From an uncultured Methanosarcinales archaeon (GTDB lineage: Archaea > Nanobdellota > Nanobdellia > Woesearchaeales > DSVV01): a stretch of DNA of 41,012 nucleotides. Made by a program: the position numbers and the translations under genes. The notes below the pieces were generated by a model that saw only the letters and a program-made list of their open reading frames with translations, had not been told where the DNA came from and did no database searches. The stretch spans positions 1-41,012 of the forward strand of contig CAZPXC010000005.1 of assembly GCA_964590935.1 (NCBI GenBank). The letters are read 5' to 3'. This document shows positions 28,477-30,335 of the stretch, one piece after another. How positions within the stretch are numbered: position 1 is the stretch's first letter; each line of letters begins with the position of its first letter.

Positions 28477-28490
28477 AAATATTTTTAAAT
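28477..28490 (+). promoter_or_regulatory. TATA/BRE-like box of paralog J
   Basis: AAATATTTTTAAAT ends 21 nt before ATG 28512. Confidence 0.6.
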
Positions 28491-28511
28491 CCTGTTTATC
28501 TAATATATAAA

Positions 28512-30335
28512 ATGAAAAAGAGGATTGAAAAAAAATTCTTGCTCCCGGTTGCCGGATTGTTTTTGATTGTGAGTTCTGTGGGAAGCGTTTTGGGTGCTAC
28601 TTATTATGTTGATACGTCAGGAACTGACGGCTCAAGCTGTGGGAGTATAAGTTCTCCGTGTAAAACATTAAGTTATACTTGTAATAATAGGGCTTCTGTT
28701 TCAGGGGATACAATCCATATAAACGCTGGAGATTATGTTGATACAGGACAATGTTTGTTATCTGTGGGGATAAATATCGAGGGAGCAGGCCAGGCATCCA
28801 CAATTATTAATTCTGACTTTGCGGGCGGCTCTGACCGTTGTAATGGGGTTTATATCTGCATGTATACTGTGATGAGCAGCCAGCCTAATGAGAATGAGGG
28901 AAGTTCTGGAACTGCTATTGTCGCCCAAGATAGCCTTATCCATGATTTTACTATTGTTGGAACGAGGTCTGCTCCAACTTGGGCAATAAGAAGCGCTGGC
29001 AGGGATAATATTGCTATCTATAACATGAATATTCATAATACTGGTAGATCAGCTATTAGGATGGAGGGTTATTACCTTTGGAATTCTCAAACCGCTGTTG
29101 CTCCAAAACATTGGGCACAGAATGATATAGTCAGAGACTGTACAATTTATAATAATACAAGAGTTAATACCGACGGCGCAATAGAACTTGAGGGAATAGG
29201 TTCAGGCTCCAAGTTTTATGATAATCATATAGATGAGAGCCAATACATGGGAACTGGCGAGGCAGGAAGAGGATTTAAACTTGGCTCTGCAGGATGGTAT
29301 AGTGATGTGCAGATTTATAATAACTTTGTAAGGACGTCCACAGGAAACGGCAATAACTTTGTTTTTGAGTTATATAATTTCCAGAACGATTCAAAGATTT
29401 ATGACAATGATTTCATAGGTCCTTTATCCTTGAACGGAGGCAGAACCACAAGAATTAGCGGTAGCAATTGGAACTTGCAGATTTATCATAATATTTTTAA
29501 TGTTACTGGCTGGAACAATAGCGAATGTTTCCAGGAACTTAGTCATAATTGGCTCTTGTTTGATAGAAACTTTGTCGTCGGGAATACAAAAACAACATAC
29601 CCTTCTGCTAATGGGCTTGGGATTTGGACAACGAATTATCTAACTGCCAGTTCAGTTAGCCATGTCCAGATATCAAATAATGTGATTTATAATCATCAAA
29701 ATTGGGGGATTAGAATAGCACACAGTGCTCATTATGATGATATAAAAATACTCAATAATGTTATAGCCGGAATCCATAGACAATACAGAGGTTCAGGGAT
29801 TTATGCAGAAGACAACCCTGTAATAACTAATCTCGTTGTGAAGAATAATCTTTTTATGAATAATGACTGGTCTTGGATTGGGCTTTCAAGTGGAGTGTCT
29901 GGAGCAGTAATATCTTATAATATGCTTTACAATAATGGAAATGATAATGATTATGAAAATTATGGTAGCGGAAATACTTTTTCCAATAATATGGTTGCAA
30001 CTCCCGAGATTGCTGGTAGTGGAGATATGCCTGCATATTTCAAACCATCCGGGCCAGGTTCTAATTTAGTGAATGCAGGTACCTCTTTGGCAGGCATAAA
30101 TGATATTGATTATGACTCTGTTACAAGACCTCAGGGGTCTGCATGGGACATAGGTGCATATGAATATATTTCAGGAACACCACCTTCATCAACATGCACA
30201 TCAGGCGCAGACAGCGATGGGGATTCAGTTGTTTCAAATGAAGAATTGGCATATTATATCTCTGAATGGAAACAGGGAAACATCAATATCGGCGAATTGA
30301 TCACTGCAATTGCGGAATGGAAAAACGGATGCTGA
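28512..30335 (+). CDS. Array paralog J: secreted PbH1 beta-helix protein ('TYYV' class) with C-terminal tag
   Basis: Start ATG 28512 (track 28452 begins inside I). Signal peptide MKKRIEKKFLLPVAGLFLIVSSVGSVLGA. TYYVDTSGTDGSSCGS...GDTIHINAGDYVD. Repeats IYNMNIHN, IYNNT, IYNNF, ISNNVIYNH, ILNNVI, VKNNLFMNN. RPQGSAWDIGAYEY. Tag 30195-30332. Confidence 0.85.
   Translation: MKKRIEKKFLLPVAGLFLIVSSVGSVLGATYYVDTSGTDGSSCGSISSPCKTLSYTCNNRASVSGDTIHINAGDYVDTGQCLLSVGINIEGAGQASTIINSDFAGGSDRCNGVYICMYTVMSSQPNENEGSSGTAIVAQDSLIHDFTIVGTRSAPTWAIRSAGRDNIAIYNMNIHNTGRSAIRMEGYYLWNSQTAVAPKHWAQNDIVRDCTIYNNTRVNTDGAIELEGIGSGSKFYDNHIDESQYMGTGEAGRGFKLGSAGWYSDVQIYNNFVRTSTGNGNNFVFELYNFQNDSKIYDNDFIGPLSLNGGRTTRISGSNWNLQIYHNIFNVTGWNNSECFQELSHNWLLFDRNFVVGNTKTTYPSANGLGIWTTNYLTASSVSHVQISNNVIYNHQNWGIRIAHSAHYDDIKILNNVIAGIHRQYRGSGIYAEDNPVITNLVVKNNLFMNNDWSWIGLSSGVSGAVISYNMLYNNGNDNDYENYGSGNTFSNNMVATPEIAGSGDMPAYFKPSGPGSNLVNAGTSLAGINDIDYDSVTRPQGSAWDIGAYEYISGTPPSSTCTSGADSDGDSVVSNEELAYYISEWKQGNINIGELITAIAEWKNGC
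30195..30332 (+). other. 46-aa C-terminal tag (J)
   Basis: CTSGADSDGDSVVSNEELAYYISEWKQGNINIGELITAIAEWKNGC-stop. Confidence 0.8.

What the first reader, a model, noticed from the sequence alone, without database searches (positions are those of the whole stretch)
28477..28609. Promoter + signal-peptide cassette is exchanged as a unit and ends near the signal-peptidase site; signal-peptide type is uncoupled from body class
J 28477-28609 and O 38099-38231 differ at about 10 of 133 positions, covering the TATA box, spacer, ATG and signal peptide up to ...VLGATYYV. DNA similarity then stops abruptly.

The same signal-peptide subtype appears on unrelated bodies:
- MKIK.LI.SGVLFLFV.S.V.A on I (beta-helix) and N (jelly-roll).
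- M..K.IFL..IVG.F on D (INAA class) and H (TYYV class), together with the same 5-nt promoter-less junction (TAGAGAAGATG and TAAAGAAAATG).

Added to the tag, each inter-body junction is a ~270-nt conserved block (tag + stop + promoter + signal peptide), so the array reads as junction-body-junction-body. This geometry favours cassette shuffling, duplication and deletion by homologous recombination.
Basis: seen in the sequence. Interest (0 to 1): 0.7.

Follow-up and report, generated by a model that had tools for sequence, protein, structure and literature searches.

The report
Recent gene-conversion patch across a gene junction
Two genes in a 16-gene tandem array of secreted, C-terminally tagged proteins (probably from a DPANN archaeon) share a recently copied promoter-plus-signal-peptide patch, which is ordinary recombination between paralogs and not a dedicated cassette-exchange system.

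Summary
J 28477-28609 and O 38099-38231 differ at exactly 10 of 133 positions, and identity falls to background right after ...LGATYYV.

The match reflects recent shared DNA ancestry, not selection:
- Synonymous difference (pS) is 0.16 in the first 33 codons and 0.78 in the bodies (Fisher p=1e-8).
- The J and O bodies give no direct BLASTP hit.

The patch is the right-hand part of a ~277-nt tract (86.6% identity) that also covers the C-terminal tag of the upstream genes I and N. It therefore spans a whole gene junction.

- Signal peptide, promoter, tag and body similarities are mutually uncorrelated (Mantel r between -0.14 and 0.16), so signal-peptide type is indeed uncoupled from body class.
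- Promoter is not coupled to signal peptide either.
- Most junction conservation is old and protein-level (tags: pS 0.58, pN 0.21; I/N signal peptide: pS 0.51).
- Other recent tracts lie inside bodies (G/K, M/N).

I found no recombinase gene, no meaningful inverted repeats and no data from related strains.

Best reading: sporadic gene conversion or unequal crossing-over between paralogs with conserved ends. The closest precedents are the S. aureus lpl cluster and the T. cruzi MASP family. This is a new member of a known kind, of moderate interest.

The parts
11532..41012 (+). Tandem array of 16 same-strand genes A-P (P is cut by the contig end). Each gene has a signal peptide, a variable body and a 45-aa C-terminal tag ending WKNGC.
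   Evidence: ORFs and start codons. Pfam finds beta-helix or pectate-lyase-like bodies. Body classes by BLASTP. Tag alignment A1.
28477..28609 (+). J-side copy of the finding. It holds the BRE/TATA-like motif (28477-28489), a 22-nt spacer, the ATG (28512), a 28-codon signal peptide (28512-28595) and ATYYV (28596-28610).
   Evidence: 10/133 mismatches to the O copy. pS 0.16. TATA-like motif.
38099..38231 (+). O-side copy. TATA-like motif 38099-38111, ATG 38134, signal peptide 38134-38217, then ATYYV.
28339..28476 (+). Left part of the same tract on the I/J side: the C-terminal tag of I plus its stop codon.
   Evidence: BLASTN 28339-28609 vs 37956-38231, 86.6% over 277 nt. I/N tag pS 0.26-0.30 against an array mean of 0.58.
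37956..38098 (+). Left part of the tract on the N/O side: the tag of N, its stop and a 5-nt insertion relative to I/J.
27065..27130 (+). Signal peptide of I (beta-helix body). It is homologous to the signal peptide of N (35920-35985), whose body is unrelated.
   Evidence: 79% nt identity, pS 0.51, pN 0.12, so the relationship is old and protein-level. Bodies are unrelated.
35920..35985 (+). Signal peptide of N. The N body is homologous only to M.
17461..17510 (+). C/D junction with no promoter (5 nt, AGAAG) and the start of the type-2 signal peptide of D. It matches G/H at 25397-25446.
   Evidence: BLASTN 17327-17510 vs 25263-25446 is 76.6%. D/H pS 0.31 over 15 codons.
23753..23928 (+). Recent tract between G and K (K copy 30434-30609). 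It runs from the end of the signal peptide about 60 codons into the mature N-terminus.
   Evidence: 161/176 identical. pS 0.28 against 0.82 in the rest of the body, p=1e-11.
34707..34792 (+). Recent mid-body tract between M and N (N copy 36910-36995), encoding AQAGIPAISSVSGDISNGQTVTISGSGF.
   Evidence: 84/86 identical. pS 0.13, pN 0.
15396..15839 (+). B-side copy of a block shared with H (26648-27084): an Ig/Fn3-like module, the tag and the intergenic region. It contains a 60-nt exact match.
   Evidence: 76.6% over 444 nt. 60-nt exact run. B/H tag pS 0.17-0.32.
20680..20745 (+). E/F intergenic region. A normal TATA-like motif is followed, at the canonical 22-nt spacing, by a relic start ATGAAAAGATAG (20720-20731, stop at codon 4). 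The real F start at 20746 carries a type-2 signal peptide.
   Evidence: The first 30 nt are identical to the H/I junction.
33488..33620 (+). L/M intergenic region (133 nt). It aligns to the junction consensus: a degenerate TATA and an 18-codon ORF from 33525 (MENKKAIVIE...), then a second TATA-like element (33586) for M. It may be the relic of a lost gene.
39931..39945 (+). O/P junction. It equals the I/J junction with the 22-nt spacer deleted, so the TATA-like motif abuts the ATG of P (39946).

Best explanation
**Setting**
- The window is a complete 41-kb contig, most likely from a DPANN archaeon of the Woesearchaeota/Pacearchaeota kind.
- It carries a tandem array of at least 16 genes for secreted proteins.
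- Each gene is built from a BRE/TATA-like promoter set 22 nt before the ATG, a Sec-type signal peptide, a variable carbohydrate-active-looking body, and a conserved 45-residue C-terminal tag.
- I infer leaderless mRNA from the fixed 22-nt spacing.
- The tag has an EF-hand-like loop, two helices and a terminal Cys.

**What the J/O match is**
- It is the right-hand half of a ~277-nt tract that was copied recently from one gene junction to another.
- The most likely mechanism is non-reciprocal homologous recombination (gene conversion). Unequal crossing-over would give the same pattern.
- I infer that the exchange was nucleated in the conserved tag and promoter sequence.
- The tract stops on both sides where the neighbouring bodies cease to be homologous. 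On the right this is just past the signal-peptidase site, in the TYYV motif shared by the beta-helix bodies.

**Shown**
- The tract exists, it is recent relative to the bodies, and the modules have independent histories.

**Inferred**
- The mechanism, the promoter and leaderless reading, and the signal-peptidase cleavage site.

**Wider pattern**
- The same process has left other short tracts in the array: G/K in the mature N-terminus, M/N in mid-body, and the B/G/H and I/K/N tags.
- It has also left deletion scars at E/F, L/M and O/P.
- Conservation of the tags, and of older signal-peptide types such as I/N, is due to purifying selection on the protein.
For: **J/O tract**
- 123/133 identical, with an abrupt end.
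- 277-nt BLASTN tract, E=1e-89.
- pS is 0.16 (3.5/22.3 sites) in the SP, 0.78 (195.7/251.5) in the body and 0.67 in the J/O tags. Fisher p=1e-8.
- pN/pS of about 0.5 in the SP, with most changes non-synonymous, fits recent neutral drift and not long-term constraint.
- The J and O bodies give no direct BLASTP hit at 1e-3.

**Upstream tags and other tracts**
- I/N tags have pS 0.26-0.30 against an array mean of 0.58.
- G/K has pS 0.28 against 0.82, p=1e-11. The M/N tract is 84/86 identical with pS 0.13.
- Homologous body pairs all sit at pS of about 0.8, which is saturated.

**Module independence**
- Mantel r ranges from -0.14 to 0.16, all non-significant.

**Promoter**
- The TATA-like motif occurs 12 times against 0.31 expected.
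- Its 3' end lies exactly 22 nt before the ATG in 7 genes and before the relic start in E/F.

**Origin of the parts**
- External homologues of the J body and of the class-2 bodies have other signal peptides. Those inspected (J homologues) have no tag; for class-2 this is inferred from query coverage. Some of the class-2 homologues are named as bacterial.
- Tag relatives occur in a Pacearchaeota MAG and on a Woesearchaeota chromosome that has the same array architecture.

**Against a dedicated system**
- There is no recombinase gene and there are no meaningful inverted repeats.
Against: - Only about 22 synonymous sites underlie the J/O estimate.
- Donor and recipient cannot be told apart.
- No population or sister-genome data are available, so no recombinant or variant array was observed.
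- A PHI-like test on the tags is not significant (P=0.42).
- Junction pairs share short exact runs (median 14 nt), so recombination cannot be frequent.
- The 28-38 kb part of the contig has no independent assembly. Logan contigs confirm only 2100-14102 and 15707-18995.
- Archaeal origin, promoter function, leaderless starts and the cleavage site are all inferred.
Confidence: 0.75

Rival explanations
1. Selection only. The J/O similarity, like the rest of the junction conservation, is maintained by selection on promoter, leaderless start and export function, with no DNA exchange.
For: - This is what the data show for most of the junction.
- Tags have pS 0.58 and pN 0.21.
- The I/N SP has pS 0.51 and pN 0.12.
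- The TATA-like motif and its 22-nt spacing are conserved.
- The 'MK[KR]GL...' SP type recurs on many bodies in other genomes.
Against: - J/O synonymous sites are nearly unchanged (pS 0.16), while most of the amino-acid changes present are non-synonymous. That is the opposite of protein-level constraint.
- Other genes in the array use quite different signal peptides and spacers, so no universal DNA-level constraint exists.
Confidence: 0.07
2. A dedicated cassette-shuffling or phase-variation system. The junction blocks are recombination sites used by a site-specific recombinase or a programmed mechanism to swap, invert or activate bodies, as at Mycoplasma vsp/vpma-type loci or shufflons.
For: - The array has a regular junction-body-junction geometry.
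- There are relic starts and a spacer deletion at junctions.
- A body-less SP-tag relic lies at the end of the Woesearchaeota array.
Against: - No recombinase or integrase gene is in the window.
- Inverted repeats are at chance level.
- About 10 genes have their own promoter, so there is no single expression site.
- Junctions are 70-80% identical with no shared exact core beyond the TATA motif and WKNGC codons.
- Recent tracts also lie inside bodies.
- The Woesearchaeota array has no high-identity junctions.
Confidence: 0.05
3. Recent duplication of a two-gene segment (from the SP of I through the SP of J), followed by replacement of the bodies, as opposed to short-patch conversion of pre-existing junctions.
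For: I..J and N..O are parallel. SP_I resembles SP_N, tag_I resembles tag_N, the intergenic regions match, and SP_J resembles SP_O.
Against: - SP_I/SP_N (pS 0.51) is much older than SP_J/SP_O (pS 0.16).
- The N body is a paralogue of M and the I body is a paralogue of G and K, so two further recombinations would still be required.
- The scenario therefore reduces to the same mechanism.
Confidence: 0.1
4. Assembly artefact. The metagenomic assembler joined or duplicated reads across a repeat, creating a false second copy.
For: - Independent Logan assemblies of the same sample break inside the array (one at both ends in tags), so the repeats do disturb assembly.
- The 28-38 kb region has no second assembly.
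Against: - The two copies differ at 10 positions plus a 5-nt indel upstream, which is not what a collapsed or duplicated repeat gives.
- Both copies are in frame with intact, different genes.
- Where a second assembly exists it is 99.99-100% identical.
Confidence: 0.03

Closest known systems
Staphylococcus aureus lpl tandem paralogue cluster (Tsuru & Kobayashi 2008, PMC2568036)
   Same: It is a tandem array of secreted or lipoprotein paralogues in which conserved segments alternate with variable ones. Recombination at the conserved segments shuffles the variable ones. [quoted passage not shown] The I/J vs N/O tract here is such a junction-spanning unit.
   Different: In lpl the conserved recombination site is in the middle of each ORF and the junction-spanning units are the variable parts. 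Here the junction is the conserved part and the ORF centres vary. In lpl the junction pairs are phylogenetically congruent. Here tag(X) and SP(X+1) are uncorrelated overall (r=-0.14). The lpl case rests on more than ten genomes, this one on a single contig.
Trypanosoma cruzi MASP family (PMC2691823, abstract seen) and similar surface-protein families
   Same: These proteins have a highly conserved N-terminal domain and a highly conserved C-terminal domain flanking a hypervariable centre. The result is mosaic genes.
   Different: MASP is eukaryotic and dispersed or subtelomeric, with hundreds of copies and a GPI signal in place of a dockerin-like tag. There the conserved ends are near-identical across the family (my own knowledge). 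Here only a few pairs are.
   Same: They are clusters of surface-protein genes that share a conserved 5' region and signal peptide on different bodies.
   Different: Those loci depend on a linked site-specific recombinase or promoter-region slippage and on one active expression site. None of these features is present here.
Dockerin-bearing secreted enzymes; NCBIfam NF041540 'GC-type dockerin domain-anchored protein'
   Same: A short Ca-loop-plus-helix module at the extreme C-terminus, ending in Gly-Cys, is attached to many unrelated secreted enzyme bodies. 10 of 15 tags hit the C-terminal end of NF041540.
   Different: Scores are below the curated cut-off (about 18 bits against 29). Only positions 49-67 of the 67-position profile match. 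There is one EF-hand-like loop, not the duplicated dockerin segment. The fold search was uninformative, and no cohesin partner was identified.

Membership tests
Gene-conversion / ectopic recombination tract between paralogues | Local nucleotide identity far above that of the flanking homologous sequence, with sharp boundaries | tested here: met
   92.5% over 133 nt (86.6% over 277 nt), against about 30-36% just downstream.
Gene-conversion / ectopic recombination tract between paralogues | Synonymous divergence locally depressed relative to the rest of the gene pair | tested here: met
   pS 0.16 against 0.78, Fisher p=1e-8. The same holds for G/K (p=1e-11) and M/N.
Gene-conversion / ectopic recombination tract between paralogues | Different segments of the genes give incongruent relationships | tested here: met
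   Mantel tests between SP, intergenic region, tag and body are all non-significant. The nearest neighbours differ by segment.
Gene-conversion / ectopic recombination tract between paralogues | Polarity (donor and recipient), or polymorphism for the tract in a population | not testable with these tools
   No related strain or sister array was found. Exact-protein look-ups returned only contigs identical to the window.
lpl-type junction-spanning evolutionary unit | The 3' segment of gene X and the 5' segment of gene X+1 co-vary across the array | tested here: not met
   r=-0.14 overall. It holds only for I/J vs N/O and A/B vs J/K.
Site-specific phase/antigenic-variation locus (Mycoplasma vsp/vpma type, shufflon) | Linked recombinase gene and defined recombination core sites or inverted repeats | tested here: not met
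   No recombinase domain was found in any window ORF scanned. Inverted repeats are at chance level.
Site-specific phase/antigenic-variation locus (Mycoplasma vsp/vpma type, shufflon) | A single expression site or promoter serving many silent cassettes | tested here: not met
   10 junctions carry their own TATA-like motif at a fixed distance from an ATG.
Archaeal BRE/TATA promoter with leaderless mRNA | A/T-rich TATA element with an upstream purine-rich BRE, enriched and positioned about 26-27 nt (centre) before the transcript start | tested here: met
   AAAYATTTWTAAA occurs 12 times against 0.31 expected. Its 3' end is 22 nt before the ATG in 7 genes plus the E/F relic, and 21 or 24 nt in 2 others. 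The position rule itself comes from my own knowledge.
Archaeal BRE/TATA promoter with leaderless mRNA | Mapped transcription start at or near the start codon; archaeal host | not testable with these tools
   There is no transcript data. Host is inferred only from tag relatives in Pacearchaeota and Woesearchaeota MAGs and a RIO1 kinase gene. The window has no rRNA or tRNA.
Sec-type signal peptide | Basic n-region, hydrophobic h-region of 12-20 residues, small residues at -3/-1 of the cleavage site | tested here: inconclusive
   Read by eye only. J is MKKRIEKK-FLLPVAGLFLIVSSVGS-VLG|ATYYV. Homologues place A/E/G-T-Y/F-Y directly after their own signal peptides. No SignalP-type predictor was available.
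Dockerin (Pfam PF00404) / GC-type dockerin (NF041540) | HMM match above the curated cut-off | tested here: not met
   PF00404 was not reported even at E<=10. The best NF041540 hit has E=1.3e-4, at about 18 bits against a cut-off of 29, and covers only profile positions 49-67.
Dockerin (Pfam PF00404) / GC-type dockerin (NF041540) | Two tandem Ca-binding loop-helix segments | tested here: not met
   There is one EF-hand-like loop (weak EF-hand_1 and calmodulin matches). The model shows a loop plus two helices, H14-26 and H31-44, mean pLDDT 80.6.
Dockerin (Pfam PF00404) / GC-type dockerin (NF041540) | Extreme C-terminal position on diverse secreted enzymes; cohesin partner | tested here: inconclusive
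   Position is met: 719 cluster representatives match, nearly all at the C-terminus and on many body types. A cohesin partner was not searched for.

The most novel reading that the evidence does not exclude
In Woesearchaeota/Pacearchaeota-type DPANN archaea, these arrays may act as a plug-and-play capture system.
- The conserved junction (dockerin-like tag, T-rich stop/TATA element, leaderless start, signal peptide) would serve as a portable adapter.
- Homologous recombination at the adapter would let horizontally acquired bacterial enzyme bodies be inserted, swapped, duplicated or deleted.
- Each body would automatically gain a promoter, an export signal and a surface anchor.
- The J/O, G/K and M/N tracts, the E/F, L/M and O/P scars, and the body-less SP-tag relic in L003 would then be footprints of an actively used diversification mechanism for the episymbiont's surface enzyme repertoire.
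Probability: 0.15. Interest if true: 0.65.

Novelty: new member of a known kind. Interest (0 to 1): 0.35.

Why it matters
- Mosaic evolution of tandem surface-protein paralogues through recombination at conserved ends is well known in bacteria and protists. I found no description of it for DPANN archaea in four literature searches.
- The case shows that an archaeon with a small genome keeps a large array of secreted beta-helix and jelly-roll proteins. Their export signal, promoter and C-terminal anchor-like tag evolve independently of the catalytic bodies.
- Several body classes have their closest relatives in sequences that lack the tag, some of them named as bacterial. This points to modular capture of foreign enzymes.
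- The practical points are:
  - a clean, dated example of a junction-spanning conversion tract;
  - an unnamed C-terminal tag family (719 cluster representatives) that may mark surface-displayed proteins of these organisms;
  - a rigid 22-nt TATA-to-ATG spacing that predicts leaderless transcripts.
- None of this overturns current ideas.

Tried and rejected
**Searches for variant arrays**
- Exact-protein look-ups for J (two start choices), O, I, K and M found nothing. IMPDH and C returned only Logan contigs from SRR9700626 that are 99.99-100% identical to the window and break inside the array.
- The tag-based scan of genome contigs gave 2 loci, and the scan of metagenome contigs gave 3 short loci. 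These short loci were end-of-array tags followed by unrelated DNA.
- Only the Woesearchaeota locus L003 holds an array. Its junctions share the architecture but not high DNA identity.
- The third homology search, with P0020, was meant to reach a sister array. P0020 sits on a 2.1-kb contig, so it gave no context.

**Nature of the tag**
- The AlphaFold model is a loop plus a helical hairpin. Foldseek against the PDB gave no hit below E=2.7, so it was uninformative.
- Pfam gives only weak EF-hand matches.

**Other tests**
- A PHI-like four-gamete test on the tag DNA was not significant (P=0.42). Homoplasy is high everywhere, so the test is inconclusive.
- tRNA and Rfam scans found nothing.
- The inverted-repeat scan found only chance-level pairs.

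**Ideas considered and dropped**
- A diversity-generating retroelement or hypermutation of the bodies: there is no reverse transcriptase, and the bodies differ in length and architecture with saturated pS.
- Lipoprotein-type signal peptides: J and O have no lipobox Cys.
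Full report
**Layout of the window**

The window is an entire public contig of 41,012 nt.

| Gene | Coordinates |
|---|---|
| A | 11532-13442 |
| B | 13481 (GTG)-15775 |
| C | 15820-17460 |
| D | 17466-19058 |
| E | 19048-20679 |
| F | 20746-23655 |
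| G | 23696-25396 |
| H | 25402-27024 |
| I | 27065-28474 |
| J | 28512-30335 |
| K | 30377-32047 |
| L | 32090-33487 |
| M | 33621-35885 |
| N | 35920-38091 |
| O | 38134-39930 |
| P | 39946 to the contig end |

Every protein starts with a signal-peptide-like N-terminus. All complete ones end in a conserved 45-residue tag..DSDGDSVVSNEEL..YIS.WKSG.VTIGDLIAAIAEWKNGC*.

The bodies fall into four classes by BLASTP and Pfam:
- {A, B, C-terminal half of F}: pectate-lyase/RHGA-like.
- {C, D, N-terminal half of F, L, P}: the 'INAA' class.
- {E, G, H, I, J, K, O}: right-handed beta-helix.
- {M, N}.

Upstream lie housekeeping genes: IMPDH, a RIO1 kinase, rhodanese, rubrerythrin and a subtilase.

Relatives of the tag were found in a Pacearchaeota MAG and on a Woesearchaeota chromosome. 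The latter has a five-gene array of the same architecture. A DPANN archaeal origin is therefore likely, but it is inferred.

**The observation**

- It is accurate to the base. 28477-28609 and 38099-38231 align without gaps with 10 mismatches in 133 nt.
- The last 27 nt are identical.
- After ...GCTACTTATTATGT (LGATYYV) identity drops to 29/80 and 23/80.
- With a 5-nt indel after the stop codon, the similarity continues leftwards through the whole tag of the upstream genes I and N: 28339-28609 vs 37956-38231, 86.6% over 277 nt, E=1e-89.
- The quoted signal-peptide strings and the two 5-nt junctions without promoters (C/D and G/H) are also present as described.

**Selection or shared DNA ancestry?**

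I estimated synonymous (pS) and non-synonymous (pN) differences by the Nei-Gojobori method on codon alignments.

| Pair and segment | pS | pN |
|---|---|---|
| J/O, first 33 codons | 0.16 (3.5 of 22.3 sites) | 0.07 |
| J/O, 387 alignable body codons | 0.78 | not used |
| J/O, own tags | 0.67 | not used |

- The contrast between signal peptide and body gives Fisher p=1e-8.
- The J and O bodies do not hit each other by BLASTP at 1e-3. They are linked only through E, G and K.
- Most of the few differences in the signal peptide change the amino acid. This is what a recently copied, weakly constrained segment looks like, and the opposite of long-term protein-level conservation.
- Selection on export and promoter function therefore cannot explain this pair. 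A recent DNA exchange can.

**Where the tract ends**

- External homologues of the J body are 32-43% identical and carry other signal peptides and no tag. All have A/E/G-T-Y/F-Y-V/I/L immediately after their own signal peptides.
- TYYV is therefore the first strand of the mature beta-helix protein.
- The inferred cleavage site is VLG|ATYYV, and the tract ends five codons beyond it.
- This is also the point where J and O cease to be alignable.
- On the left the tract ends where the tags begin and the non-homologous linkers of I and N start.
- The boundaries are thus the limits of homology. That is expected for homologous recombination, and equally for any tract we can only see where sequences are comparable.

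**Is 'promoter + signal peptide' a unit, and is the junction a unit?**

I built pairwise DNA-identity matrices for four segments and compared them with Mantel permutation tests. The segments were the first 66 nt of each gene, the intergenic regions, the last 108 nt of each gene, and the bodies (local alignment score).

| Comparison | Mantel r |
|---|---|
| Signal peptide vs body | -0.13 (p=0.93) |
| Tag vs body | -0.09 |
| Signal peptide vs tag of the same gene | 0.09 |
| Tag of gene X vs signal peptide of gene X+1 | -0.14 |
| Intergenic region vs downstream signal peptide | 0.01 |
| Intergenic region vs upstream tag | 0.16 (p=0.24) |

- Nothing else is coupled to anything else either.
- Junction-wide co-inheritance is seen only in particular pairs: I/J with N/O, and A/B with J/K.
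- Counter-examples are explicit:
  - K/L matches I/J through the tag and the TATA box (83.6% over 250 nt, with a 40-nt exact run) and then diverges 16 nt into the signal peptide.
  - The recent G/K tract (23753-23928 vs 30434-30609, 161/176 identical) begins at the end of the signal peptide and runs into the mature protein. pS is 0.28 there against 0.82 in the rest of the body, p=1e-11.
  - M and N share an 86-nt mid-body tract with 84 identities and pS 0.13.

**Old versus recent similarity**

- The tags as a class have mean pS 0.58 and pN 0.21. They are kept by purifying selection on the protein, while synonymous sites approach the saturation seen in homologous bodies (about 0.8).
- Exceptions with low pS mark more recent shared ancestry: B/H 0.17, I/N 0.26, C/M 0.28, G/H and I/K 0.30.
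- The I/N signal peptides are 17/22 identical in protein on unrelated bodies. Their pS is 0.51 and pN 0.12, so this is an old, selectively maintained relationship and not a recent swap.
- D/H has only 15 codons and is ambiguous (pS 0.31).
- Signal peptides of the 'MK[KR]GL...' kind recur on many different bodies in other tag-bearing proteins from the databases. Part of the 'type' sharing therefore reflects a lineage-wide consensus.

**Promoter reading**

- AAAYATTTWTAAA occurs 12 times, allowing one mismatch, against 0.31 expected. Ten of these are in array junctions on the coding strand.
- Its 3' end lies exactly 22 nt before the ATG of G, I, J, K, L and O.
- The spacing is 24 nt for C and 21 nt for N.
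- It is 22 nt before a relic ATG in the E/F spacer and 0 nt before P.
- From my own knowledge, archaeal TATA boxes are centred about 26-27 nt upstream of the transcript start. This spacing would then put the start on the A of the ATG, giving leaderless mRNAs.
- That would explain why promoter and start codon keep a rigid distance. It remains an inference.
- D and H (5-nt junctions) and E (11-nt overlap with D) have no such element and are presumably co-transcribed.

**Signs of array turnover**

- E/F: a normal promoter is followed, at the canonical spacing, by ATGAAAAGATAG, a type-1 start with a stop at codon 4. The real F start then follows with a type-2 signal peptide.
- L/M: the 133-nt spacer aligns to the junction consensus and contains an 18-codon ORF before a second promoter.
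- O/P: this junction equals I/J minus the 22-nt spacer.
- L003: the Woesearchaeota array ends with a signal-peptide start that runs, in another frame, straight into a tag-like sequence.
- Other family members: P0058 and P0045 share 264 C-terminal residues at 95.8% identity behind unrelated N-terminal bodies.
- All of these fit occasional recombination and deletion at or near junctions.

**What argues against a dedicated system**

- There is no recombinase or integrase domain in any scanned ORF.
- Inverted repeats are at chance level.
- Many promoters are present, so there is no single expression site.
- Junction pairs share short exact runs, median 14 nt.
- The Woesearchaeota array lacks high-identity junctions.
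- A PHI-like test on the tag DNA is not significant (P=0.42).
- No strain-level data could be found. The only other assemblies of this population are identical to the window and simply break inside the array.

**The tag**

- It has no Pfam family above threshold.
- Its first part resembles an EF-hand Ca loop (weak EF-hand_1 and calmodulin matches).
- Its end weakly matches the C-terminal end of NCBIfam NF041540, 'GC-type dockerin' (10 of 15 tags, best E=1.3e-4, below the cut-off).
- The AlphaFold model (mean pLDDT 80.6) is a loop followed by two helices. Foldseek was uninformative.
- A profile search finds 719 cluster representatives at E<=1e-3. In nearly all the match is at the extreme C-terminus, and the bodies are very diverse.
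- A conserved Cys sits one or two residues before the tag, and the last residue is always Cys, read directly from the sequences. This suggests a disulfide staple.
- 'Dockerin-like anchor module' is a reasonable working description. Membership in the dockerin family is not established.

**Comparison with known systems and verdict**

- The geometry here is the same but with the phase shifted, so that the junction is the conserved part. The array-wide congruence reported for lpl is not seen here.
- Mycoplasma vsp-type loci share the conserved 5' region and signal peptide, but they rely on features absent here.
- The finding is real, and its core inference of a recent exchange at J/O is right. The broader picture is ordinary paralogue recombination plus purifying selection, seen in an unusual host and on an uncharacterised tag family.
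- I rate it a new member of a known kind, with interest 0.35.

Noticed in passing
window 15783-39945 (10 junction sites); also 6093-6105(-) and 8133-8145(-): The BRE/TATA-like motif AAAYATTTWTAAA occurs 12 times against 0.31 expected. In the array its 3' end is almost always exactly 22 nt before the ATG, which predicts leaderless transcripts. Its T5 run directly follows the upstream stop codon, so it might also act as an archaeal oligo-T terminator (speculation).
   Followed up: partly
window 39931-39946: The O/P junction is the I/J junction with the 22-nt spacer deleted (TGAGGAAATATTTTTAAA|ATG). The TATA-like element abuts the P start codon, so P is probably expressed only by read-through or is impaired.
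   Followed up: partly
window 20680-20745: The E/F spacer contains a relic type-1 start ATGAAAAGATAG (20720-20731, stop at codon 4) at the canonical 22-nt distance from the TATA motif. The real F start (20746, type-2 signal peptide) is preceded by AAAAGAG, like D (AGAAG) and H (AGAAA).
   Followed up: partly
window 33488-33620: The unusually long L/M spacer (133 nt) aligns to the junction consensus. It holds an 18-codon ORF (33525, MENKKAIVIELHVYGYPLI*) before a second TATA-like element at 33586. It may be the remnant of a deleted array gene.
   Followed up: partly
window 20746-23655 (gene F): F is a fusion of two body classes: an N-terminal INAA-class half related to C, D and L, and a C-terminal half related to A and B. 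It carries a strongly divergent tag (29% identity to the N tag, with the EF-hand-like loop lost) that still ends WKNGC.
   Followed up: partly
window, about 45-47 codons before each stop (e.g. 28328-28336, 37945-37953) and the last codon of each gene: A conserved Cys lies just upstream of every tag (..SC[TI]SGAD..), and the final residue is always Cys. This suggests a disulfide that closes the tag into a loop.
   Followed up: no
window 15396-15660, 26648-26900, and about 34400-34700: B, H and M share an Ig/Fn3-like module (..TTPPV.SNG.PTGTLA..TLSLSTDEAATCRYS..SYNYYVRC.D..GN.N). It is 57-73% identical in protein, is inserted between unrelated bodies and the tag, and also occurs in Pacearchaeota locus L002 and in P0066.
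   Followed up: partly
window 25181-25260, 35676-35745, 37864-37950, 39703-39790: G, M, N and O share a Cys-rich linker (GPVCG[ND]G.CESGETPA.CPADC) just before the tag. It is another independently distributed module.
   Followed up: no
L003 10562-10740: After the last gene of the Woesearchaeota array there is a TATA-like element and a signal-peptide start (ATGAAAAGGGGATTGATGG..). In another frame this runs directly into a tag-like sequence (DGDVEIDELIIYISDWRLGIVDISD), forming a relic with no body.
   Followed up: no
window 2807-5569 (-): A 920-aa protein has about 457-nt internal DNA repeats (3674-4130 vs 4247-4703, 72.5%), many Cys-rich MopE-like motifs, a Ser/Thr-rich stalk and a C-terminal transmembrane segment. 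It is a possible surface scaffold and was not examined as a partner for the tag.
   Followed up: no
Databases (P0002-P0008; P0163-P0389): The closest homologues of the J body and of the class-2 (INAA) bodies have no tag (inspected for J; inferred from coverage for class-2). Several class-2 homologues are named as bacterial (Bdellovibrio, Syntrophaceae, Deltaproteobacteria). This is consistent with horizontal acquisition of bodies, followed by addition of the lineage-specific signal peptide and tag.
   Followed up: partly
L001 and L007 (Logan, SRR9700626): Independent short-read assemblies of the same population are 99.99-100% identical to the window but break inside the array. L007 ends exactly within the tags of B and D, which shows that the repeats limit assembly.
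   Followed up: yes
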